Under the pieces are notes generated by a model. The model searched no databases. It saw only the letters and a list, made by a program, of their open reading frames with translations, and had not been told where the DNA came from. The position numbers and the translations under genes were made by a program. A stretch of DNA of 64,000 nucleotides from a virus. The DNA is taken from the IMG/VR virus record IMGVR_UViG_3300002307_000034, positions 40,951-104,950 of that record; one strand, written 5' to 3'. Below, one piece after another: positions 3,381 through 55,449 of this stretch (positions are counted from its first letter, which is position 1; each line of letters opens with the position of its first letter).

Positions 3381-6300
3381 TTATGCAAAAATCATTGGTT
3401 TTAATATCAATTGTGTTGTAAGACCATTGTTATATGATTGTGTAACTGATTTTACAAAATAATATGTTGGACTTTGAGTTCCTATTCTTTTTAATGAATA
3501 AGTAAACTTACAAAAATCTCCGACTTGAATTAAAGGATTTCCAAATACTTGAATTGATATTTCTTTATGAAATCCAGTAAGCAAGCTTGCAGAATCAAGT
3601 AATATTCGATATGCATCATTTTCTCCTTGAACCCAGTCTGTTGTTAATTGAACAGATGTATTTGAATATTTTCTGTCAATTACTTTTTCGAGCACTATTT
3701 GATTAGTTAAAAATTGATAATTTGCTTGAATTTGCAAAGGAAATATTGTTAAGTTTCCTATGTTATCGCCTGGTGCCTTTAACCATAATATTTGATTATG
3801 ATTATTTACAACAGCAAATCTTGATCTAAACGGGGTCATGGCAACTTTTGAATATGACCCATCCCATGAATCAACTCTACCCATAATAATGTTAGTTAAG
3901 TTATTATTAGCAGTTGCAGTGCCATAAAATACTTTTTGTAAAACTGCTGTATTTGGCAAAACAGGAGATAATGAATGTTTAACATCATAAAATTTAAAAC
4001 CACGAACTTGTGGTTTAGCTTGCCATAAATAATGATCAACTGAATTTTGTATACCGTGAACAATATTATCCAAAAACTTTTCTGTATTAAAATGATATCT
4101 TGGAAGATATTTAAAATCAGCTTGATTATTTAATTCATCAACTACTGGAAACTTAGATGCATATATTTCTGTTAATTTTGCAGAAGCAATTCCATTTTTA
4201 ATACATGAAACAAATGCTCCAAAATTTGATGTGCCATTGGGGACTATGCTAGTTATAAAGCTATCTAATTGTATTTTAGATATTTCTCTGCCATCAACAT
4301 ATATATATAAATATGGACTTGACATATATACAGAAATTCTATGATTTACACCATCAAATAAATCTAAAGACAGCACTTGGCTATATACTGCAGAATTTAT
4401 TTTATTGTTAATTGCTTTTGAATATGTTGTTGCATTTCCATTTGGACTTCCGGTAAATAATTCTATTTTGGTATTAGCCTGTCCATATCTTGATACGGTA
4501 AGAAATTGTGCATTTGAAGTATCTCCAGCAACAACATTAAAAAATAATCCAAACTGAGTTTGATCAGCATGTCTATAACTTGAATTAAATGTTGCTGCAA
4601 AATAATTATAATTTTTTGAAAGTTCATTTGGAGATAATAATGTAGATTGTCCAACTATTGAATTTGACATTCTTGCAGTTCCATAAGTAAATGCTGTACC
4701 ATCTCCAAGAGATCCAAATCCAACTGTAGTCGTTCCAGTCATTAATTTTGCTGAATTAAAATATGATGATGGATCAACTGTTCCTGATATGGCATTTGCT
4801 GTGTCCGCAGCACTATCATAAATATTATGATCTTTAATTGGAGTATTATATTTTCCACGCATTACACCTACAGCTTTTCCTGTAGGGTAATATCTAATTT
4901 CTTCAAAAGTTTGACCTAAAGAATTTACATAATCTTTTATTTCTCTTATTGCATTATCTATATCTGATGGACCCGTAATTATTTTATTTATACTTAAATT
5001 AAAATTATTACTTGGAAAGAATCTATATTCCAAACCTTCATAAGATAATATTTCAGATCCTATAAAAACATCACCCTTATTGTTTGCAATTGTTCTAGGT
5101 AAACTTAATATTATAGAAGGATCAAAATTAAAATAATTTTGATATGTAGTCATTGATTTTGAAATTTCTGTACAAGGAAGTGCATTTTCTACATCTTCTT
5201 GCCAAACAGTTTTAACAGTATCTCTTTTTTTGGATATTAATCCAATTTGAGAATTTAAATCTGAAACATAATCGCTATAATTTGTGTTGGGAATTCTATA
5301 ATTTATTATTACTTTTCCAACTTTTGGTCCTATTGATTCTTGAAATGTAGAAGGAATTATATTAGCAGTATAAGAAATTCCATCTACTGTTTCTGCTTTA
5401 TCTGTAACCGAAAAGTCTGCTGCAAAAGTGTTTGCATTAAATTTATTTAAAATTGATTTTAAACTTATAAATTTCATCATTCCATATTCATCAAAAAATG
5501 CAGAAATTTGATGTGCTACAAATAAACTTTGCAAAGCATCAAATAAAGTTATTTGCTCATCAGTCCAAAAATAATGAATTTTTGCTTTTTGATCTAATGC
5601 GTTGACTAGGCTATCGTAATCGTAATCACTAAAACCAGATATGTTAAATAAATCAGTTATAATTTCTAAAAGCCCAGCATTTGTAGCAGAGTATTGTGGT
5701 GCTGCCATTGCCATCATTAAATATTTTGATTGATCAAAAGCACTTACAGTTACATTATCAATATCATTAATTTGCCAAACATCTGAATAAAATATTCCAG
5801 ATGGTATGGAGCCAGCAAATGTACTCATGGGGGAAGTATAAAAACAGGAAAACTTTACGCCTTGTCTCATTAAATTATAAAATGTAGCTTCTTTAGCATC
5901 ATTTTCAAATATAGTAAAAGGTTGATTATTATATGTAATTGGAATATTACTTATGCTTAAATTTAAACTATTTGAACTGATATAACCTATTGGAAAAGAT
6001 TGATCTCCTGTAGAAGATGATTCTTTTGTAATTGATTTAGACATTATTAGCGGAGATATATCTATTTCAAGTCTTGGAGAAACTTCAATAATACTAAATG
6101 ATGTAGCAGAGGTGCTGCTTTGAGCATCAATATTTATATTATTAGAATTTGGTTCAATTGTATTAACTTGTATATGTAAACCTTTTATTGAAACAAATAA
6201 ATCATTTCCCGCAAATGTTTGTATTTGTCCATTTTGATTTAATTGAGGTGGGACAGCCCATTTATTTTGAGACCATCCAGCACCATTATAATAAAGAACT

Positions 6301-47458: not shown

Positions 47459-47543
47459 TGTGACCCAAATCACAAAGATTTTTTGCAAATTGTCTCAAAT
47501 GTCCGTTTTGCGACTTGATTTTGTCAGTGTACTAGTGTAGTAT
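47459..47543 (+). promoter_or_regulatory. Composite promoter cassette 1 (CRP-type site, -35, PafBC-type -26/-10)
   Basis: TGTGACCCAAATCACA 47459; TTGATT 47515; TGTCAG-N10-TAGTAT 47522..47543. Confidence 0.75.
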
Positions 47544-47599
47544 TTATACTATAAGAGTTAATAAAGGTTATTAGCACTTCTTAAAGAAAGGTTATCCAA

Positions 47600-47743
47600 A
47601 TGATAACACTAAACTATACTTCTCTAGATTCTGACAATTCCGCCCGTTCTTTTGTGGGGTACTTCCATACAGAGAAAGCGGTCAATGACTACCTTGACCT
47701 AGTCTCAATAGATGAGACAATCCTCACAGTCAGCGTGATATAA
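47600..47743 (+). CDS. 47-aa hypothetical early protein
   Basis: GAAAGG SD; hand-translated MITLNYTSLDSD... Confidence 0.6.
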   Translation: MITLNYTSLDSDNSARSFVGYFHTEKAVNDYLDLVSIDETILTVSVI

Positions 47744-47809
47744 ATCACAAAACCTGACTGGTCAGATACGGCGTGTCGCATTGACTTTCGCCAAATAGTG
47801 TGATAGTAT
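47702..47809 (+). promoter_or_regulatory. Composite promoter cassette 2
   Basis: GTCTCA-N5-TGAGAC 47702; CGTGA-N6-TCACA 47734; GGCGTGTCG 47770; TTGACT-17-TAGTAT. Confidence 0.75.
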
Positions 47810-47865
47810 TCCACTATAAAATTAAATAAGAATAAATAAGAAAGAGTCTAGAAAGGACTACTATA

Positions 47866-48084
47866 ATGAATAACTACTATAATGAAATCCGCAAGGACAT
47901 CGCTAAAGACTTTGGTCTAGAGGCTGGTGGCTATGCTCCACTTCCTGCCCCTGCCTTGTCTATCGTTCAGGCTATGCGCCTTAATGCTAAGTACCCTAGC
48001 GAGGCGTTATCTACACGCCCTAGCGATAAGGCTATACTAATCGCTAAGCGATACGCTAGCCTAAAGAAAGTCTGGTCTAACTAA
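47866..48084 (+). CDS. Hypothetical early protein
   Basis: GAAAGGA SD downstream of promoter. Confidence 0.65.
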   Translation: MNNYYNEIRKDIAKDFGLEAGGYAPLPAPALSIVQAMRLNAKYPSEALSTRPSDKAILIAKRYASLKKVWSN

Positions 48085-48169
48085 TGACTATAAATAGCCT
48101 AACACTAATACAACTAGGTCTAATGTCGTACCTAGTTGCTAAACTAATAACAACTAAGAAAGAGGACTA

Positions 48170-48370
48170 ATGAAAACTAAGGTTATCACTACCGCCCTAC
48201 TAATAACGCTAGTACCTGCCACCGCACAGGCTAGCACTCACCACCACCGCACACCTAGAACTTATTCGGTGTATAATACAAATGTGTATAGAGGACAGAT
48301 GACTAAGATGAAATCTGCTCTCGGTATCCACTACCATACATACACACCTAAGCACCACAAGAAATACTAA
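48170..48370 (+). CDS. Small secreted basic His-rich protein
   Basis: Signal peptide ending AQA; GAGGA SD. Confidence 0.55.
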   Translation: MKTKVITTALLITLVPATAQASTHHHRTPRTYSVYNTNVYRGQMTKMKSALGIHYHTYTPKHHKKY

Positions 48371-48383
48371 GAAAGGAAAACTG

Positions 48384-48560
48384 ATGACTATGACTTATGT
48401 ACCTACTTGGGAGCGTGTCTATAATCCTTGGGACACAGAACCCGATTTCTATGATTTATCACAAATTGAAGAAGAAGAAAACGAAAAACAAAAAGATGAA
48501 ATGTCTATCGAAGAAATTGCCGAAGAAGAACTAGAATTAGAAGAGGATTTTGACCTATGA
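48384..48560 (+). CDS. 58-aa highly acidic protein
   Basis: Hand-translated; GAAAGGA SD; ends IEEIAEEELELEEDFDL. Confidence 0.6.
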   Translation: MTMTYVPTWERVYNPWDTEPDFYDLSQIEEEENEKQKDEMSIEEIAEEELELEEDFDL

Positions 48561-48724
48561 TGAGCCGTAAAGACTATGTAGAAACTGCACGAATTCTAAA
48601 TAAATATAAATCAGTAATAGATGAAAAAGATTTTTTAGATTTAGCAGATGATTTTTCTTTTATGTTTGAAAAAGACAATCCTAATTTTATTGCAGATAAA
48701 TTTTTAGAGGCTTGCAATAAATAA
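48557..48724 (+). CDS. 55-aa protein, RKDY...DNPNF family paralog 1
   Basis: Aligns with 49377..49571. Confidence 0.75.
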   Translation: MMSRKDYVETARILNKYKSVIDEKDFLDLADDFSFMFEKDNPNFIADKFLEACNK

Positions 48725-48738
48725 AAAAATCGAAGATC

Positions 48739-48992
48739 GTTGAAGCTTTGACTATAATGGTTGAAGCTTCAACTATTTTTTTGGGCGGGGTTTCAATCCC
48801 CGCCCGCACTCGGGCGTGTCGCATGTGGTATAAGTCACAAAGTACACGCTCCATATATTGAGACTACTTGCAAGTATACTAGACAGTAGCGATTTTATGT
48901 GTTATACTTCCAGTATTGAAAAATTAAATAAGAAAAAAGTTAGTTAATCAACGGCGTGTCGCCTTGATTTTCCGCAGAAAGTCTGCTAAACT
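48739..48992 (+). promoter_or_regulatory. Composite promoter cassette 3
   Basis: GTTGA-N4-TCAAC boxes, 24-bp GC repeat, CRP-type site 48824, GTCTCA box, TACTTGCAAGTA, two -35/-10 pairs, GGCGTGTCG 48953. Confidence 0.75.
48798..48821 (+). repeat. CCCCGCCCGCACTCGGGCGTGTCG repeat, copy 1
   Basis: Identical at 49715; one-base insertion at 51814. Confidence 0.95.
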
Positions 48993-49025
48993 AACGATAG
49001 TTAAAAATAAAGAAAGGTGGTCAAA

Positions 49026-49220
49026 ATGACTACACTAACAATAAACGAAGTATGCGTTAAGCATACACCTCATAAAGAATCTATTTCCGTGATTGCTCAC
49101 GATTTCGATTCTGCCGATTATTTCACTTTTTGTGAAAATTGTGAACAAAACATAGAAAGTTTTTCTTTCTATGATGATGACAGAGGTACTGTCTATACTA
49201 AGTGGACACTTAGTAAGTAA
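49026..49220 (+). CDS. Small Zn-ribbon protein
   Basis: C..H and CENC; GAAAGGTGG SD. Confidence 0.6.
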   Translation: MTTLTINEVCVKHTPHKESISVIAHDFDSADYFTFCENCEQNIESFSFYDDDRGTVYTKWTLSK

Positions 49221-49376
49221 AGAAAGGATAAACTTAAATGATAGCAATTAAATGTGATGAATGCGGTGGTGCAGGATTTATTTTTTTTGGTAATGAAAAT
49301 GATTTTGATGTAATGAAATGCGATTGCATTTCTGATGATGTTGATTTTACTGATGGAATTATGGGGGCTTAAATAA

Positions 49377-49571
49377 ATGATGACTAGAAAAGACTATGTG
49401 AGTGTAGCCAATATTCTAAATGATATTGCTAAGCCTAATATGGATATGGTTCCTTTTGAGGATTTAGTAGCAGAGTTTGCAGATATGTTTTTTGCAGATA
49501 ATCCTAATTTCTCTCCCACCCGTTTTGAAATGGCTTGCTATGGAAATGATGAGGGTGGTGATGTTAAATGA
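49377..49571 (+). CDS. RKDY...DNPNF family paralog 2
   Basis: Aligns with 48557..48724. Confidence 0.75.
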   Translation: MMTRKDYVSVANILNDIAKPNMDMVPFEDLVAEFADMFFADNPNFSPTRFEMACYGNDEGGDVK

Positions 49572-49678
49572 AAAACGAAGATCCATTTGGATTTGCAAAT
49601 GCAATTCAGCTTGATCATCTTAATTTTGAACAATTAAAAGAATTAGAAAAGATTTTAGATAAAATTAAATAGCTGATA

Positions 49679-49833
49679 AGTATAATTATGCAAATCACTG
49701 CATAATTATGCAAGCCCCGCCCGCACTCGGGCGTGTCGCATTACGGTGTGAGATTTGTCACACAGGTTGAGCGTCTCAAAATGTGGAATTACTTACGAGT
49801 AGGTAGAATAATGTCAGTGGTATCGTGTATAAT
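49679..49833 (+). promoter_or_regulatory. Composite promoter cassette 4
   Basis: Tandem ARG-type boxes, 24-bp repeat, CRP-type site 49747, GTCTCA box, TACTTACGAGTA, TGTCAG-N10-TATAAT. Confidence 0.8.
49715..49738 (+). repeat. 24-bp GC repeat, copy 2
   Basis: Exact match to 48798..48821. Confidence 0.95.
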
Positions 49834-49869
49834 TCCTACTATTAACAAGAAAGAAAGAAGGTAGCAAAT

Positions 49870-50091
49870 ATGCTAATCTCAACAGCCCTAGAAGGCAAAT
49901 ATGTAAAGTCCTCAAAAGGACAAGGAATAATCCAGTACGCAGATTTCCGCAAGGATATGCGACACTCTACGCCCGAAGGCTATCTTGCTTATGCTTGCAA
50001 AGTACGCCCACACTGGAACGGCGAAGGATTTCCTAAGCCTGATTTCTGGACAACAATTTATGTCGGACTTGATTCAGAATTGGTGGACTAA
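49870..50091 (+). CDS. Hypothetical early protein
   Basis: GAAGGT SD downstream of cassette 4. Confidence 0.65.
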   Translation: MLISTALEGKYVKSSKGQGIIQYADFRKDMRHSTPEGYLAYACKVRPHWNGEGFPKPDFWTTIYVGLDSELVD

Positions 50092-50195
50092 ATGGGTAAT
50101 ATCGCAGATGAATTATGGAATAATTATAAAGAGGCTACTTGGAACACAATGTCAGTGCCACCTGCTACAATATGGGAAACAAAGGAGAACGACTA

Positions 50196-50405
50196 ATGGA
50201 ATATAGTTATGTAATTACTACACACTATGACGGCGATTATTTTTCGTCGCATAGATTTTCAGATGCACTAACTGCTGTAAATGCGTTTAATAAATGCGTA
50301 GATGTAGGAGATGCAAAAGAATATGCAACTTATAATCTATTAGAGCCAAATGGCAAAATGCATACACTTAATTTTTATAGAAATGGGGCAGTAAATGGGA
50401 AGTAA
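50196..50405 (+). CDS. Hypothetical early protein
   Basis: AAGGAG SD before MEYSYV. Confidence 0.65.
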   Translation: MEYSYVITTHYDGDYFSSHRFSDALTAVNAFNKCVDVGDAKEYATYNLLEPNGKMHTLNFYRNGAVNGK

Positions 50406-50694
50406 TCTAGCAACAGAATTAGCTGGAAGTGAATTAGGTTTATCTATGGAAGATAGTATTGGTATGCACTTGCGTGTTAATCACTACCCTCCCGTCCCAA
50501 TTTCTATGGTACAGCCTTGCATAGATGCTATTGACGCATATTGGGAAGAAGACTTAAATCGTGAGATCGAATTACCTGAAGGCGTATCTTGGCGTGGCAA
50601 TACCTATGCACCCGCATATGCTATTATTGAGAATCATCACTTGGAAGCCTGGTGCCAGGAAGATGAATACTTAGATGAAGAAGAATTGGTGTGA
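50395..50694 (+). CDS. Hypothetical acidic protein
   Basis: HLRVNHYPPVP...HHLEAW; coupled to upstream gene. Confidence 0.7.
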   Translation: MGSNLATELAGSELGLSMEDSIGMHLRVNHYPPVPISMVQPCIDAIDAYWEEDLNREIELPEGVSWRGNTYAPAYAIIENHHLEAWCQEDEYLDEEELV

Positions 50695-50794
50695 TGTAAC
50701 TCACACCAGACACGCCCATAGTGGATTGGACAAAGGTTGTTCCGCTATGGTAAAATACCACCTATAAACAACAACAAAAGAAAAGAGAAATAAA

Positions 50795-50959
50795 ATGACA
50801 GTATCAAACAAGACATACGCAGTAGGCGACCTATTCACCACACAGAAGTCAAAGGTGACAGGCACTATCAAGGAAATCAACCCTATCAACGCAAGCACGA
50901 CCCGTGTGCTGCTTGATGTCGAAGGCAAAGACCGCTGGACAACAGTATCGTTTGCGTAA
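50795..50959 (+). CDS. 54-aa SH3-like beta protein, GDLFTT family paralog 1
   Basis: Hand-translated; aligns with 51529..51699; the ORF track shows only the antisense shadow. Confidence 0.75.
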   Translation: MTVSNKTYAVGDLFTTQKSKVTGTIKEINPINASTTRVLLDVEGKDRWTTVSFA

Positions 50960-51041
50960 TTAAATAATAATTGGCAGGAGGGTGTCAGACCCTCCTGCTA
51001 TACTATCTCTCATAACAAACCCGAATAGAAAGTAGAAATAA

Positions 51042-51458
51042 ATGTCAAGAGCAATCACAGTAAAGGTGGCAACACCAAAGGTAATCAAGGCTTTGGAAAC
51101 AAAGTTGGCAACAATTAAAACTGATTATGCTAATCAGGAAAAGAACGAAGCAAAGTATCAGAAGGACTTTGAGAAGTATCGCAAGGCTCTTGCTGATTAT
51201 GCTATTGCTAACATCAAGAAAGCAACTAACATCAGAACTAATCATCGCTCTTGGAATAATAGCCTTAACATTGACTTTGATGTTGATACACAAGGTGCTA
51301 ATTTTCCTGCTGAGCCACAGCGTGAGTTTGAGCAACTACACGCACACACATACAAGGAAATTGTAGAGGACATCTCAAATGCTCTCACAATTCTAAAAAT
51401 GACAGACGAGGAAACAGTAAATGCTTCTACTATGAAGCAAATCGCTAAGTATCTCTAA
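51042..51458 (+). CDS. Hypothetical coiled-coil early protein
   Basis: Preceded by TGTCAG-N10-TATACT promoter. Confidence 0.7.
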   Translation: MSRAITVKVATPKVIKALETKLATIKTDYANQEKNEAKYQKDFEKYRKALADYAIANIKKATNIRTNHRSWNNSLNIDFDVDTQGANFPAEPQREFEQLHAHTYKEIVEDISNALTILKMTDEETVNASTMKQIAKYL

Positions 51459-51528
51459 ATAATACAAGACCTGAGCATAGTCTTAAAACTGCTCACACTA
51501 TAACCCGAAATAGAAAAGGAAAAAAATA

Positions 51529-51699
51529 ATGACTTTGCAAGGATACACATATCAAATTGGTGATTTATTCACAACATCTAAAACTGGAGTAACTGGTCGC
51601 ATCATTAAGTTTGCACCAATCTCAAATAAAGTAACTCGTGTTCAATTGCAATTAGCAAATGGCTCAAAGCGATTTGCTATGGTTAAAACTTCTATCTAA
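51529..51699 (+). CDS. 56-aa GDLFTT family paralog 2
   Basis: Hand-translated; AAGGA SD. Confidence 0.75.
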   Translation: MTLQGYTYQIGDLFTTSKTGVTGRIIKFAPISNKVTRVQLQLANGSKRFAMVKTSI

Positions 51700-51792
51700 T
51701 AAAATAATTAAAGTGGTCGTGAGTGATAACAGGTAAGTGTTATAGTAGCCTATAACCACCACTTTATTTTTTGGATCTGCAGCTGCTAATAA

Positions 51793-51931
51793 TAGTTGAA
51801 CATTCAACCAAAACCCCGCCCCGCACTCGGGCGTGTCGTTACGAATGTGATTTTAATCACTTGAATTTTGTCTCAAATAATAAGATTAAGGGCGTGTCGA
51901 GTGGACAAATGTCAGTGCGTTTTGGTATACT
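51793..51931 (+). promoter_or_regulatory. Composite promoter cassette 5
   Basis: GTTGAACATTCAAC, 25-bp repeat copy 3 (51814..51838), CRP-type 51846, GTCTCA box, GGCGTGTCG 51891, TGGACA, TGTCAG-N10-TATACT. Confidence 0.8.
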
Positions 51932-51962
51932 AGCGACAGTTAAACAGAAAGAAGGTCTATTC

Positions 51963-52079
51963 ATGAACCTAGATGAATTTAAGACACATGTCCTTGCAAC
52001 ACGCAAGGCTTCACAGGCAGAAGCGATGTCAGTCCTATCTGCTACAATACAACCTCAACCCGAAAAGAAAGAAGAATAA
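51963..52079 (+). CDS. 38-aa protein containing an internal promoter
   Basis: GAAGG SD; MNLDEFKTHV... Confidence 0.55.
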   Translation: MNLDEFKTHVLATRKASQAEAMSVLSATIQPQPEKKEE

Positions 52080-52084
52080 ATAAA

Positions 52085-52564
52085 ATGGAAAATCTAACAA
52101 TGTCTCAGGCTCGTGTAATTATTGACGAAGCCGTTGCAAATTTTGATGGAAACCTATCAGATGAAACAATTTCTCAAATTGTTTTTGCTATGAATGAAAA
52201 TTTACAGATTCGTGATTACACCCTAGGCTTACCTATTAACTATGGAGTCGAGCATATGGTACAATTCTTTACTTATATCTCAGACCGAATTCCATCGGAT
52301 GAGGCATATGCGGTTAATACCGTATTAGCAATGTTTGAGTATGAATTAGGCGAAACAGATATTGCTTCCCACCTCATTCAATCTGTAAATGGGACTAGAG
52401 TCTACTCTCTTGCCCTTCTTGCGACTCGTGTTATAAATGCAGGATGGCCATCAGATTCTTTCGTTGCAATGCGTAACGAATTGGCACCCAAAGTTATTGC
52501 AAATATCGAAGAATTAGGAGATGAGGTAATTGGTCAAAAATTGGATGAAAATGAACTTGTCTAA
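52085..52564 (+). CDS. DUF4192-like protein
   Basis: QIRD and YSLALLA..VINAGWP motifs. Confidence 0.5.
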   Translation: MENLTMSQARVIIDEAVANFDGNLSDETISQIVFAMNENLQIRDYTLGLPINYGVEHMVQFFTYISDRIPSDEAYAVNTVLAMFEYELGETDIASHLIQSVNGTRVYSLALLATRVINAGWPSDSFVAMRNELAPKVIANIEELGDEVIGQKLDENELV

Positions 52565-52667
52565 AGTTCAACGCATACAAGAATTGCGACGCAGTAATGC
52601 GTCGCAACCTCTACGCAATAAAAAGAAATACACCCGAAAAAACAAATATAAGAAAGTAGAAGAATAA

Positions 52668-52931
52668 ATGTCAAATCTCTCAACCGCCCTTGCACTACAA
52701 GAAGGAATTTCTGAAATTGTCTTCTCTGATGAAGTAATGATTTATGCAGCTGAAATTGCAAAAAATGCAGATTTTAATCCTGAAGTTTTAGAATTAATAA
52801 TGAAATACGCTTCTACACTATCCGCAGGCGTTGCAACAAAAGTTGTAGAAATTGTAATGCCTAAATCTGAATTTAGTTCTATGATGAAAGAACTTAAAGA
52901 AATGCAAGAGATTGGAGATTCAATTGAATAA
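52668..52931 (+). CDS. Hypothetical protein
   Basis: ORF track, co-directional array. Confidence 0.6.
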   Translation: MSNLSTALALQEGISEIVFSDEVMIYAAEIAKNADFNPEVLELIMKYASTLSAGVATKVVEIVMPKSEFSSMMKELKEMQEIGDSIE

Positions 52932-53205
52932 GTCAACTGGACAAAACATTCACACAAAATGGATCCAAGATGCATTGGGTGTGAGCACTGCAGTAGCACT
53001 ACGTGTGCAAAAAGAAATTAATCAAAACTATGATTTAGATTGGTCTGAAGCAGATATGGACGAAATCGAATTTACTGCAATGTTGGCGTTTGAAAATATG
53101 AATGTAACACATAGCTTTTAGTTGCGACGGGTGAGAGAGACGGTGGGTCCAAGGGTTGGGCCCACTGTTACCACTTGACAAATGCAAATTTTTGGGGCGG
53201 GGCTT

Positions 53206-53417
53206 TGTGATGCAAATCACATGTGATTAAGATCACATGCATAAGGTTTGACCAATCACCCTTACGAATGATAGAATCATCCAATGGAATCAATAATGCT
53301 CGTGCCCGTTTTGTTCTTTTTGTCACCATTTATGATGGCTTTTCTAGCGTATGTGTTTTATGTCACAATTAAAATACGTTGATAGGCTTGACGAATGTCA
53401 GTCCAGTCTGATATACT
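53206..53417 (+). promoter_or_regulatory. Composite promoter cassette 6
   Basis: Back-to-back CRP-type sites 53206 and 53222, third at 53352; TTGACG-NN-TGTCAG-N10-TATACT. Confidence 0.75.
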
Positions 53418-53448
53418 TACGGCTTAACCAAAATGAAAGAAGGTCAAA

Positions 53449-54483
53449 ATGAACCAAAATACAGTCCATCAATCTGAAATCGAATCCGGCGAAGCGTCTT
53501 TTGCTATTGTCGAATCTCGTTCCAATCCTGCTTGGCATAGTTTTGCTAACAAGGTTTTCGATAAGGATATCGAAACTCCTACAGTTACAGAAATTATGGA
53601 TGCTGCTAAATTATCTAATTGGAATGTTCGACTTGAGCCTATTGCCGAATTAGTTCCTGACTACAATATGATTAGCGATTCTTATCTTGTTGTCCGTGAT
53701 AATCCATATGGTAAAGGTAAGGATGTTCTTGCAACAGTAGGCTCACGCTATAAAGAAGTGCAGAATGAAGATTTATTTGCATTTGCAGAAAATCTACACG
53801 ACTCCAATCCTGACGTTAAAATTGATTCAGCAGGTTCATTTAAGAGTGGACGTGTTGTTTATGGTTCTTGGTCTGTACCTAACCAATTAGTTCTTGACCC
53901 AAAGGGTGCTAACGATGTAACGAATCTATATTTGATTTGCTACACCTCACACGATGGGTCTGTGTCTGTGCAGGTTGCTTTAACGCCTGTCCGTGTTAAA
54001 TGTCAAAATACACTTAATTTTGCTATGAAACGTGCTAAGCAATCTTTCAAGTTGCGTCATACTCAAACAGTAGACGGAAAAATTGCACAGGCTCGTGAGG
54101 CTTTAGGTTTATCTATTGCATATATGGATGAATTCTCTAAGCAAGCGAATGAATTATTTACTCGTGAGGTAACAGCGTTAGATTTTAGCAAAATCATCAC
54201 AACACTTTATCCTAAGCCTGAATCAGATAAAAAAGGTTCGCTTAAAAAGTGGGAATCAAAAGTTGTTTTGCTTGACGAGTTGTATCACAATTCACCTACC
54301 AATGAAAATATCAAAGGTACTGCTTGGGGCGTAGTTAATGCATTAACCGAACGCCTTGATTATTATCGCACAGCCCGCAAGGGTAATGGTGAATCGCTTG
54401 TTTATTCTGCAAGTGGTTTTGACCCTGTAATAAATGCAGAAAAAAATAAAATTGTTAAAGCGGTTTTGCAACTAACTGCTTAA
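53449..54483 (+). CDS. DUF932 (TIGR03299-like) protein
   Basis: PAWH, VGSRYKEVQN, TSHDGS, TPVRVKCQNT, RHT, GTAWGVVNALTE. Confidence 0.9.
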   Translation: MNQNTVHQSEIESGEASFAIVESRSNPAWHSFANKVFDKDIETPTVTEIMDAAKLSNWNVRLEPIAELVPDYNMISDSYLVVRDNPYGKGKDVLATVGSRYKEVQNEDLFAFAENLHDSNPDVKIDSAGSFKSGRVVYGSWSVPNQLVLDPKGANDVTNLYLICYTSHDGSVSVQVALTPVRVKCQNTLNFAMKRAKQSFKLRHTQTVDGKIAQAREALGLSIAYMDEFSKQANELFTREVTALDFSKIITTLYPKPESDKKGSLKKWESKVVLLDELYHNSPTNENIKGTAWGVVNALTERLDYYRTARKGNGESLVYSASGFDPVINAEKNKIVKAVLQLTA

Positions 54484-54489
54484 TAAATC

Positions 54490-54521
54490 GGGGGCGAGAA
54501 ATCGCCCCCACATTTTTTTTT
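54490..54521 (+). terminator. Intrinsic terminator
   Basis: GGGGGCGA-GAAA-TCGCCCCC plus T-run. Confidence 0.9.
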
Positions 54522-54537
54522 AGATCAAGAGCTGCAA

Positions 54538-54691
54538 TTTATAAATATGCAAAGCGTTGCATAATTATGCATCCTCGGGGTATGTGATGTAAAACACAAT
54601 TACGATATGTCCGAATTATCACTTGAATACCAATTACGAAGATCAAATTACGAATTACGATTGGACATATGTCAGTGGTATATGTTAGAAT
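54538..54691 (+). promoter_or_regulatory. Composite promoter cassette 7
   Basis: Tandem ARG-type boxes, CRP-type 54583, ATTACGA repeats, TGGACA-NN-TGTCAG-N10-TAGAAT. Confidence 0.75.
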
Positions 54692-54717
54692 ACCCTATAT
54701 TCAACGAAAGGAAATAT

Positions 54718-55449
54718 ATGCCAAATTGGGTCTATAATGGTTTAACAATTGAAGGTAAGCCAGAATCTATAACTAAATTAAAAGAACAAATGAATACTCC
54801 CTTTGTGGATTATATTGAAGCCAATGGTGATTTAGCCTTTGGTGTTAAAGAGACTAAGTATTCTAATCCTGTATTTTCATTCCGTAATATCATTGCTCCC
54901 ACCGACCTTGAAGCATACAAGGCACAGCCTGTTCGTTCTGAACTTGATTGGAATGACCCTAATTGGTGGGCTGATATTCAACGTCTATCTGAAACAGATA
55001 ATTCTTGGTATAACTGGAACATGCGTAATTGGGGAACAAAATGGGATGTGGCTGTATCTGAGGATAATAAGTATCCTAATACATATATGCAAGAATCAGA
55101 TAATGGTGAGAATAAAGTAGTTTATTATTCATTTGAAACTGCTTGGTCTGCCCCGTTTCCTGCAATGGAAAAGTTATCTGAACAATATCCTGATTTGTTA
55201 TTTACATTATCATATGAAGAAGAAACAGGTTGGGGTGGTGAAGCAGAATTCTTGAGAAGTAAAATGATTAGTCATAGTGAATATGAAAACAAATGCAGAG
55301 ACTGTGATGCAACCGACACTCTAGACTATTGCGAAGAGTGTGAAAATGAGATATGCTCTGCTTGTGGATTTGGAAACGAGGAACTTGACGAAAACAAATG
55401 TCAGTCCCATAGTGTACAATTAGCCTCTACAACAAACGAAGGGAAATAA
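54718..55449 (+). CDS. DUF1281/YubB ferredoxin-like-fold protein with C-terminal Cys motifs
   Basis: MPNWVYN, WYNWNMRNWGTKWD, FETAWSAP; start re-placed. Confidence 0.8.
   Translation: MPNWVYNGLTIEGKPESITKLKEQMNTPFVDYIEANGDLAFGVKETKYSNPVFSFRNIIAPTDLEAYKAQPVRSELDWNDPNWWADIQRLSETDNSWYNWNMRNWGTKWDVAVSEDNKYPNTYMQESDNGENKVVYYSFETAWSAPFPAMEKLSEQYPDLLFTLSYEEETGWGGEAEFLRSKMISHSEYENKCRDCDATDTLDYCEECENEICSACGFGNEELDENKCQSHSVQLASTTNEGK

What the first reader, a model, noticed from the sequence alone, without database searches (positions are those of the whole stretch)
47770..51899. GGCGTGTCG (WhiA-type GACAC) boxes fixed 2 nt upstream of -35 elements
Seen: GGCGTGTCG at 47770, 48813, 48953, 49730, 51830 and 51891; inverted GACACGCCC at 50709. 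Three are followed by exactly 2 nt then a -35 (CA-TTGACT, CC-TTGATT, AG-TGGACA). Known: actinobacterial WhiA binds GACAC and acts with WhiB just upstream of -35 at cell-division promoters. Inference: early promoters coupled to host cell-division state, analogous to CtrA sites in alphaproteobacterial phages.
Basis: partly seen in the sequence, partly recalled or inferred. Interest (0 to 1): 0.72.

Follow-up and report, generated by a model that had tools for sequence, protein, structure and literature searches.

The report
Host WhiA boxes on phage promoters
An uncultured freshwater actinobacterial phage that encodes its own WhiB protein carries seven copies of the DNA word bound by the host cell-cycle regulator WhiA, four of them at the same fixed distances from promoters as in host ftsZ and recA promoters, so the phage probably wires some early genes into the host WhiA/WhiB switch.

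Summary
Observation confirmed. GGCGTGTCG occurs six times (0.01 expected), all on one strand within 4.1 kb, and nowhere else in the 105-kb phage genome. A seventh, inverted copy lies at 50708.

Its reverse complement, CGACACGCC, is exactly the published extended WhiA operator of M. tuberculosis. Despite 34% GC the host is actinobacterial: the phage and 10 of 10 complete relatives encode a WhiB-family protein.

Four boxes abut sigma-A promoters in two fixed registers:
- GGCGTGTCG-N2-(-35), three copies.
- GACACGCC-N10-(-35), one copy.

Both registers recur across relatives in IMG/VR. They also match registers at conserved promoters in sampled actinomycete genomes: recA for N2, and ftsZ plus a MerR-type gene for N10/11.

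Three boxes are a longer distal form (GCACTCG+box) that follows operon ends, 58-65 nt upstream of the next promoter. Their role is unexplained.

The phage has no WhiA or sigma-4 homologue, so host WhiA is the likely reader, perhaps partnered by the phage Wbl. Binding, activation versus repression, and coupling to host cell division are all untested.

The held literature describes no WhiA boxes in phages. This scan has already flagged the same architecture in several other genomes of this phage group.

The parts
47770..47778 (+). WhiA-type box, promoter-proximal, N2 register (GACAC on the template strand)
   Evidence: Exact GGCGTGTCG, followed by CA then a -35.
47781..47809 (+). Sigma-A-type promoter TTGACT-17-TAGTAT with TG extension. 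Drives the small genes at 47866-48724.
   Evidence: Promoter scan; sequence; ORFs.
48806..48821 (+). Long-type distal box GCACTCG+GGCGTGTCG. Lies just after the terminator at 48739-48773 and 58 nt upstream of the -35 at 48880.
   Evidence: The 16-mer is conserved in many low-GC IMG/VR contigs with differing flanks.
48824..48839 (.). CRP/GlxR-like palindrome TGTGG-N6-TCACA, 2 nt after the long box
   Evidence: Sequence. Family-wide, palindromes peak 2, 7 or 12 nt after the box end.
48953..48961 (+). WhiA-type box, promoter-proximal, N2 register
   Evidence: Exact 9-mer; followed by CC then a -35.
48964..48992 (+). Promoter TTGATT-17-TAAACT. Drives the genes at 49026-49672.
   Evidence: Sequence.
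49723..49738 (+). Long-type distal box GCACTCG+GGCGTGTCG, about 65 nt upstream of the TGTCAG-type promoter whose -10 is at 49828
49747..49762 (.). Perfect CRP/GlxR-type palindrome TGTGA-N6-TCACA after the long box
   Evidence: Sequence.
50690..50705 (.). CRP/GlxR-like palindrome TGTGA-N6-TCACA, 2 nt upstream of the inverted box. Same module as in relatives.
   Evidence: Sequence; family module.
50708..50716 (+). WhiA-type box in GACAC orientation (aGACACGCC; contains the exact 8-mer GACACGCC), N10 register
50727..50756 (+). Promoter TGGACA-18-TAAAAT (TG-extended). Drives the gene at 50795-50959.
   Evidence: Promoter scan.
51823..51838 (+). Long-type distal box GCACTCG+GGCGTGTCG, after the operon end and 63 nt upstream of the -35 at 51902
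51846..51861 (.). CRP/GlxR-like palindrome TGTGA-N6-TCACT after the long box
   Evidence: Sequence.
51891..51899 (+). WhiA-type box, promoter-proximal, N2 register
   Evidence: Exact 9-mer; followed by AG then a -35.
51902..51931 (+). Promoter TGGACA-18-TATACT that also contains TGTCAG-N10-TATACT. Drives the genes from 51963 onward.

Best explanation
GGCGTGTCG (reverse complement CGACACGCC) is the operator of the host's WhiA protein, the conserved actinobacterial cell-cycle transcription factor. The phage places it at a subset of sigma-A promoters in its small-gene (putative early) block.

In the N10 register (GACAC on the non-template strand, 13 bp from core to -35) the layout equals that of host ftsZ-type promoters. 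It would assemble the canonical complex: sigma-A region 4 on the -35, a Wbl protein on sigma-4, the WhiA N-domain on the Wbl, and the WhiA C-terminal HTH on GACAC.

In the N2 register (GACAC on the template strand, 3 bp from the -35) the layout equals that of the host recA LexA-type promoter. Here the WhiA HTH and sigma-4, which both read GACA, would sit as a pseudo-dimer on an inverted repeat TGTC-N5-GACA.

The Wbl partner may be host WhiB2 or the phage's own Wbl.

Shown: sequence identity to the published operator, the fixed registers, family-wide conservation, host-promoter parallels, and the phage Wbl with cluster ligands and sigma-binding aromatic patch.

Inferred: WhiA binding, direction of regulation, timing, and which Wbl is used. 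The three distal long-type boxes are probably additional WhiA sites (auxiliary or titrating); their role is not resolved.
For: 1. Six exact copies against 0.01 expected, all within 4.1 kb, and none elsewhere in 105 kb.
2. The reverse complement equals the M. tuberculosis WhiA consensus obtained both in vivo and with purified WhiA (PMC13473873). The GACAC core is footprinted and structurally resolved in S. venezuelae (PMC3781837, PMC10243135).
3. Actinobacterial context. A Wbl gene (PF02467, 42.7 bits) is present in this phage and in 10 of 10 complete relatives. The capsid protease is nearest to Streptomyces and Rhodococcus phages.
4. The phage Wbl has four Cys, GVWGG, and all four aromatic-patch positions used for sigma-A4 binding (PMC13013590).
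5. No phage WhiA-HTH or sigma region 4 homologue.
6. Fixed registers across relatives:
   - In 255 unique boxes, a full promoter lies at N2 in 37 cases and at N10 in 22, against 0.65 expected per offset.
   - Scans independent of the long box: the N10 composite gives 48 of 58 low-GC sites with a -10 versus 0 of 36 high-GC sites. The N2 composite gives 172 low-GC sites versus 4 high-GC sites.
7. Boxes cluster in one 2.4-7 kb patch in five related genomes.
8. Host side, 101 Actinomycetes genomes:
   - About 40 carry GGCGTGTCG + SOS box + TAnnGT at the N2-equivalent offset, upstream of recA (4 of 4 checked). The Mtb ChIP peak lies at recA P2.
   - About 12 carry CGACACGCC-N9-11-TTGAC(C)-17-TAnnnT. 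Of the eight examined, the downstream gene is ftsZ in 2 and a MerR-family gene in 4; 2 could not be assigned.
9. In five 1.3-1.5 Mb actinobacterial genomes, 13 of 17 exact boxes are intergenic at orthologous sites, including upstream of nrdR, a footprinted Streptomyces WhiA target.
10. Only 4 of about 13 promoters in the block carry an in-register box, so it marks a specific promoter class.
Against: - No binding or expression data exist.
- The host is unidentified. RNR relatives were only phage contigs mis-binned into unrelated MAGs.
- The phage Wbl is not clearly of the WhiB/WhiB2 subfamily. Its best solved relative is WhiB1 at 7.6e-7, against S. venezuelae WhiB at 1.6e-4, so partnership with WhiA is unproven.
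- The N2 register leaves only 3 bp between GACAC and the -35, unlike what the sepX description implies, where WhiB contacts about 7 bp upstream of the -35. It could therefore be repressive.
- The window's box promoters already have good -35 and extended -10 elements and may not need an activator.
- Three of the seven boxes are distal, and 131 of 172 N2 composites in relatives lack a -10, so promoter activation cannot be the whole story.
- The extra conserved GCACTCG of the long type is not part of any published WhiA motif.
- The family set was ascertained on the long box.
Confidence: 0.7

Rival explanations
1. WhiA decoy or titration. The boxes, above all the distal long-type ones and the promoter-less composites in relatives, serve mainly to soak up host WhiA (or WhiA/WhiB2) as the phage genome replicates. 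This would shut down host ftsZ, replication and repair promoters rather than control phage genes.
For: - Three of seven boxes are not at promoters.
- 131 of 172 N2 composites in relatives have no -10.
- Boxes are perfect consensus copies, i.e. likely high affinity.
- Small candidate-host-like genomes hold only 3-5 exact copies, so seven per phage genome times copy number would outnumber them.
Against: - Four boxes sit in exact registers with functional-looking promoters, and those registers are conserved. A pure decoy needs no register.
- Boxes are confined to one regulatory patch instead of spread through the genome.
- This reading is not exclusive of promoter control.
Confidence: 0.15
2. A phage-encoded DNA-binding protein, one of the many unknown small early proteins, recognises the box, and the match to the WhiA operator is mimicry or coincidence.
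For: All ten products examined from the box-driven operons have no assigned function, so an unrecognised HTH cannot be excluded. The long type carries 7 extra conserved bases (GCACTCG) not explained by the published WhiA motif.
Against: - The 9 of 9 identity to an experimentally defined host operator.
- The same word is used at orthologous host promoters.
- The exact 9-mer is invariant across diverged phages whose flanks differ, as expected for a highly conserved host reader.
- No WhiA-HTH or sigma-4-like domain in the phage.
Confidence: 0.1
3. The long-type units act as RNA or DNA hairpins (CGCCCG-CACT-CGGGCG), for example as terminator or processing elements at operon ends, and the shared 9-mer is incidental to that structure.
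For: In this phage all three long units can form a 6-bp GC hairpin and lie right after operon ends. In relatives, 43 of 114 have a T-run within 35 nt upstream.
Against: - In relatives the bases upstream of GCACTCG vary (ccgac, cccggc, gtaac and others) and often cannot pair, while the 16-mer itself is invariant. Sequence is conserved, not structure.
- No T-tract follows the unit.
- This reading does not explain the promoter-proximal boxes.
Confidence: 0.05

Closest known systems
WhiA/WhiB (WhiB2) co-activated sigma-A promoters of Actinobacteria (S. venezuelae sepX and ftsZ; M. tuberculosis ftsZ, dnaB, dnaE1; PMC10243135, PMC13473873)
   Same: - Operator word (GACAC core, extended GACACGCC).
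- Position upstream of the -35.
- Either strand is allowed.
- A Wbl partner that binds sigma-A region 4.
- The N10/11 register is shared with ftsZ promoters of sampled actinomycete genomes.
   Different: - Located on a phage genome.
- Exact 9-mer instead of a degenerate site.
- Only two rigid registers, where Streptomyces targets are described as variable.
- A phage-encoded Wbl of uncertain subfamily.
- An additional distal long-type form.
- Binding not demonstrated.
Actinobacterial recA LexA-type promoter (Mtb P2) with an upstream WhiA site
   Same: Same box orientation (GTGTC on the non-template strand) and same box-to-(-10) distance (24-26 nt) as the phage N2 class. Mtb WhiA ChIP peak at recA.
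   Different: - Host promoters carry an SOS box in the spacer and a poor -35.
- Phage promoters have no SOS box and a near-consensus -35.
- Whether WhiA activates or represses recA is not settled in the paper.
CtrA-box promoters of alphaproteobacterial phages
   Same: Phage promoters that carry the operator of a host cell-cycle master regulator.
   Different: Unrelated regulator and host phylum. WhiA needs a Wbl bridge, and this phage supplies a Wbl itself.
Mycobacteriophage TM4 WhiB, reported to interfere with host whiB2
   Same: A phage Wbl intersecting the host WhiB2/WhiA pathway.
   Different: That case concerns a host promoter. No WhiA operators on the phage genome were described there.

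Membership tests
WhiA/WhiB-dependent sigma-A promoters | WhiA operator present (GACAC core; extended GACACGCC / CGACACGCC) | tested here: met
   Six exact CGACACGCC (as reverse complement) plus one GACACGCC. Consensus taken from PMC13473873 and PMC3781837.
WhiA/WhiB-dependent sigma-A promoters | Operator lies just upstream of a sigma-A -35/-10 promoter | tested here: met
   Met for 4 of 7 boxes (47770, 48953, 50708, 51891) with -35 and -10 at 17-18 nt. Not met for the three long-type boxes, which lie 58-65 nt upstream.
WhiA/WhiB-dependent sigma-A promoters | Register comparable with conserved host WhiA targets | tested here: met
   The N2-equivalent offset occurs at recA in about 40 of 101 genomes. 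N10/11 occurs at ftsZ and MerR-type genes.
WhiA/WhiB-dependent sigma-A promoters | Organism has WhiA and sigma-A (actinobacterial host) | tested here: inconclusive
   The host is not identified. An actinobacterial host is inferred from the Wbl gene in 11 of 11 genomes, actinophage-like capsid protease, and the literature statement that Wbl proteins are exclusive to Actinobacteria and their phages.
WhiA/WhiB-dependent sigma-A promoters | A Wbl partner able to bind sigma-A region 4 | tested here: met
   The phage Wbl (106 aa) has four Cys, GVWGG, and aromatic-patch equivalents W17, F31, Y32 and the GVWGG Trp. Its ability to bind WhiA was not testable.
WhiA/WhiB-dependent sigma-A promoters | WhiA binds the site and transcription depends on WhiA plus Wbl | not testable with these tools
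   Needs EMSA or footprinting, in vitro transcription, or whiA-depletion reporters.
PafBC / RecA-NDp type promoters (considered) | TGTCRG(TG)-N8-10-TAnnnT element replacing or flanking the -35 | tested here: met
   Nine TGTCAG-N10-TAnnnT on the + strand between 47522 and 55420. Only the one at 51910 coincides with a box promoter, so this is a separate promoter class and not an explanation of the box. Host recA regions show TGTCGG-N10-TAnnnT downstream of the WhiA box.

The most novel reading that the evidence does not exclude
The phage Wbl and host WhiA form a hybrid activator. Host WhiA reads the boxes, and the phage Wbl replaces host WhiB2 as the bridge to sigma-A. The box promoters would then be a phage-timed gene class independent of the host's own WhiB2 level, while the many perfect boxes on replicating phage DNA draw WhiA away from ftsZ, recA and nrdR and arrest host division. 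This would give a concrete function to the very common but unexplained whiB genes of actinobacterial phages.
Probability: 0.3. Interest if true: 0.85.

Novelty: new variant of a known kind. Interest (0 to 1): 0.7.

Why it matters
Wbl proteins are among the most common regulators encoded by actinobacterial phages, yet what they act on is largely unknown. Here a whole clade of abundant freshwater actinophages shows the missing cis-element. These are exact host WhiA operators at two rigid promoter registers that match host ftsZ and recA promoters. This turns the question 'what do phage WhiBs do?' into a direct bench test: WhiA with or without phage Wbl on defined promoters. It also provides natural spacing and orientation variants that test the flexible-linker model of WhiA/WhiB activation. 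Finally, it suggests that phages of streamlined lake actinobacteria read, or hijack, the host cell-cycle switch.

Tried and rejected
- I first took the 34% GC and AGAAAGG-type ribosome sites to mean a Firmicute-like host and doubted the WhiA idea. I dropped this after finding the phage Wbl gene.
- Megablast of the region against cultured phages gave no match.
- Host assignment through the phage ribonucleotide reductase failed. All close hits are phage contigs mis-binned into MAGs of unrelated phyla.
- Whole-genome counts of the 9-mer in 201 Actinomycetes genomes are dominated by GC content and are not informative alone.
- The exact sepX spacing could not be recovered. Neither WhiA paper has supplements held as text.
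- Host genes next to the long-type flank CGACACGCC-CGA could not be assigned in high-GC genomes because of spurious ORFs. Only the nrdR case in two small genomes stands.
- The cultured relative Streptomyces phage Circinus has one copy against a control of 2, so no cultured model was found.
- PHROGs gave no function for the ten products tested from the box-driven operons.
- Chance or recent duplication is rejected because the flanks of the copies differ while the 9-mer is invariant.


Full report
**What is there**

The window is the right 64 kb of a 104,950-bp IMG/VR virus record rated 97% complete, with about 34% GC. GGCGTGTCG occurs six times, all on the + strand between 47770 and 51899, against 0.01 expected. 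It occurs nowhere else in the genome, and the reversed control gives 0. A seventh copy, aGACACGCC, lies inverted at 50708-50716.

**Anatomy**

The seven boxes fall into three classes.

- *N2 class* (47770, 48953, 51891). GGCGTGTCG, then 2 nt, then TTGACT, TTGATT or TGGACA, then 17-18 nt, then TAGTAT, TAAACT or TATACT. Each heads an operon of small genes.
- *N10 class* (50708). GACACGCC in the opposite orientation, then 10 nt, then TGGACA-18-TAAAAT, with a TGTGA-N6-TCACA palindrome 2 nt upstream.
- *Long type* (48806-48821, 49723-49738, 51823-51838). GCACTCG+GGCGTGTCG, sited just after operon ends, followed within 2-7 nt by a TGTGA-N6-TCACA-like palindrome, and 58-65 nt upstream of the next -35.

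Only these four of about 13 candidate promoters in the block carry an in-register box. The rest are TGTCAG-N10-TAnnnT promoters without one. The ten downstream products tested have no recognisable function.

**Host context**

I first read the low GC as arguing against an actinobacterial host. An earlier first-reader note on this stretch, mentioning PafBC-type and GlxR-type elements, made me test that directly. The genome encodes a WhiB-family protein (PF02467, 42.7 bits, above cut-off).

- The protein is 106 aa, with four Cys and the GVWGG turn.
- In the alignment to WhiB1 it keeps all four aromatic-patch positions that mediate binding to sigma-A region 4 (PMC13013590).
- Ten of ten complete relatives also encode one.
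- Wbl proteins are reported only from Actinobacteria and their phages, and whiB is used as the marker for freshwater actinophages (PMC10914622).
- The capsid protease is nearest to Streptomyces and Rhodococcus phages.
- The closest ribonucleotide reductase relatives are phage contigs mis-binned into lake and marine MAGs, including Lake Mendota and Swedish lakes. This points to freshwater but does not name a host.

**Identity of the box**

The reverse complement CGACACGCC matches the extended WhiA operator of M. tuberculosis letter for letter. That operator is GACACGCC by ChIP-seq and by IDAP-seq with purified WhiA, CGACACGCCGn in an earlier ChIP study, and cGACACGc in M. smegmatis (PMC13473873). 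The GACAC core is footprinted in S. venezuelae (PMC3781837). In the cryo-EM complex it is read by the WhiA C-terminal HTH, while WhiB bridges sigma-A region 4 and the WhiA N-domain. That paper states that orientation and spacing vary among targets and attributes this to the linker (PMC10243135). The phage has no WhiA-HTH or sigma region 4 homologue of its own.

**Conservation in relatives**

The long 16-mer retrieved more than 117 IMG/VR loci. About 85 of them are low-GC phage contigs with differing flanks.

- In these, 255 unique boxes show a full promoter at N2 in 37 cases and at N10 in 22, against 0.65 expected per offset.
- Because that set was ascertained on the long type, I ran two scans that do not depend on it.
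- CGACACGCC-N10-TTGAC gives 58 unique low-GC sites, 48 with a -10, against 0 of 36 high-GC sites.
- GGCGTGTCG-NN-TTGAC gives 172 low-GC sites against 4 high-GC sites.
- In five related complete genomes the boxes cluster in one 2.4-7 kb patch, 14-26 kb from the wbl gene.

**Host-side test**

I sampled Actinomycetes genomes around an Aquiluna MAG handle (G006).

- In five 1.3-1.5 Mb genomes, 13 of the 17 exact boxes are intergenic and recur at orthologous places: after hflX and upstream of a DUF4193 gene, and upstream of a PIN-PhoH gene, nrdR, rpsL and a MerR-family gene. nrdR is a footprinted WhiA target in Streptomyces.
- In 101 genomes, GGCGTGTCG-N24-26-TANNNT (the N2-equivalent offset) gives 100 matches against 59 for the reversed control. 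About 40 of them are one arrangement: box, LexA SOS box, TAnnGT. The downstream gene is recA in 4 of 4 checked. This agrees with the Mtb WhiA peak at recA P2.
- CGACACGCC-N32-34-TANNNT gives 93 matches against 46. About 12 are full CGACACGCC-N9-11-TTGAC(C)-17-TAnnnT promoters. Of the eight examined, the downstream gene is ftsZ in 2 and a MerR-family gene in 4; 2 could not be assigned. FtsR, a MerR-type protein, is the conserved ftsZ activator (PMC6683498), though orthology to FtsR was not tested.
- Both phage registers therefore match natural registers at core host targets.
- Some sampled genomes are flagged unpublished (G012, G027, G032, G035, G040, G195). They are included only in the pooled totals. 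No specific claim rests on them, and their matches were left out of the recA-type and ftsZ-type counts.

**Mechanism proposed**

The N10 form is a direct repeat of GACA motifs 20 bp apart, leaving room for the Wbl and the WhiA N-domain between the WhiA HTH and sigma-4. This is the canonical activation layout. The N2 form is an inverted repeat TGTC-N5-GACA with centres about 9.5 bp apart. WhiA HTH and sigma-4 both read GACA, so they could sit there as a pseudo-dimer. Whether that layout activates or represses is open. The Wbl partner may be host WhiB2 or the phage Wbl. These steps are inference.

**What does not fit**

- The long type adds seven conserved bases that no published WhiA motif explains, and it never abuts a promoter.
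- In relatives, 131 of 172 N2 composites (the TTGACA type) have no -10, and some flank GC hairpins or DnaA-box-like words.
- The phage Wbl is not clearly of the WhiB2 subfamily.
- The window's box promoters look strong on their own.
- A titration role for some boxes is therefore a live rival, and it is compatible with promoter control.

**Novelty**

Full-text searches found no paper describing WhiA operators on phage genomes, and a survey of phage WhiB and Lsr2 regulators does not mention WhiA. Within this scan, however, the same architecture has already been reported and followed up on several other genomes of this phage group. Those are AI notes and are not independent evidence. A cultured relative, Streptomyces phage Circinus, lacks the cluster.

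Noticed in passing
window 47522-55420, + strand: Nine TGTCAG-N10-TAnnnT elements, all with exactly N10 and all on the + strand, form a second promoter class. Only the one at 51910 overlaps a box promoter. Host recA regions show TGTCGG-N10-TAnnnT (the RecA-NDp/PafBC-type layout) about 60 nt downstream of their WhiA box, so the phage block combines both modules found at host recA.
   Followed up: partly
window 47734-47749, 48824-48839, 49747-49762, 50690-50705, 51846-51861: CRP/GlxR-type palindromes TGTGA-N6-TCACA sit next to the boxes. Across relatives their starts peak at -36 and -26 and at +11, +16 and +21 relative to the box start, a 5 or 10 nt phasing. In the N10 module the palindrome ends 2 nt before the box.
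   Followed up: partly
relatives, e.g. L248, L313, L083: Many GGCGTGTCG-NN-TTGACA composites have no -10. Some form box-NN-TTGACA-[GC hairpin]-TGTCAA-N10-box, or are followed by AA(T/A)CGGACATTTT or TTATCCACA (DnaA-box-like) words. These may be a non-promoter use of the box, or an origin-like region.
   Followed up: no
window 50795-50959 and 51529-51699; 48557-48724 and 49377-49571: Two pairs of paralogous small genes lie in the box-driven operons (46% identity, E 9e-14; 50% identity, E 5e-14). No family is assigned.
   Followed up: yes
window 47494-47506; 49765-49776; 47821-47832 and 48916-48927 (approximate): Further short words are conserved across relatives: AAATGTCCGTTTT (reverse complement of AAACGGACATTT), TTGAGCGTCTCA upstream of the gene at 49870, and AATTAAATAAG in 5' leaders.
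   Followed up: no
window 48880-48908: A promoter-like TAGACA-17-TATACT sits between the long box and the 48953 box promoter with no ORF behind it. It could be a tandem promoter or the start of a short leader or small RNA.
   Followed up: no
L130 about 6207-6236, minus strand (G000, outside the window): A consensus TTGACA-18-TATAAT lies about 330 nt upstream of the phage wbl gene (G000:C1:5565-5885, minus strand) and has no WhiA box. The wbl gene is probably expressed independently of WhiA.
   Followed up: no
L133-L158 (genome contigs): Close relatives of this phage (RNR 78-86% identical, one on a 110-kb contig) are binned inside MAGs labelled cyanobacterium, Saccharibacteria, Bacteroidia and Brevundimonas. 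This is likely phage contamination of those MAGs.
   Followed up: no
L164, L171-L174 (five small actinobacterial genomes): An exact CGACACGCC immediately follows the hflX stop codon, about 85 nt upstream of a DUF4193 gene, in all five genomes. This is a conserved candidate WhiA target not named in the papers read here.
   Followed up: partly
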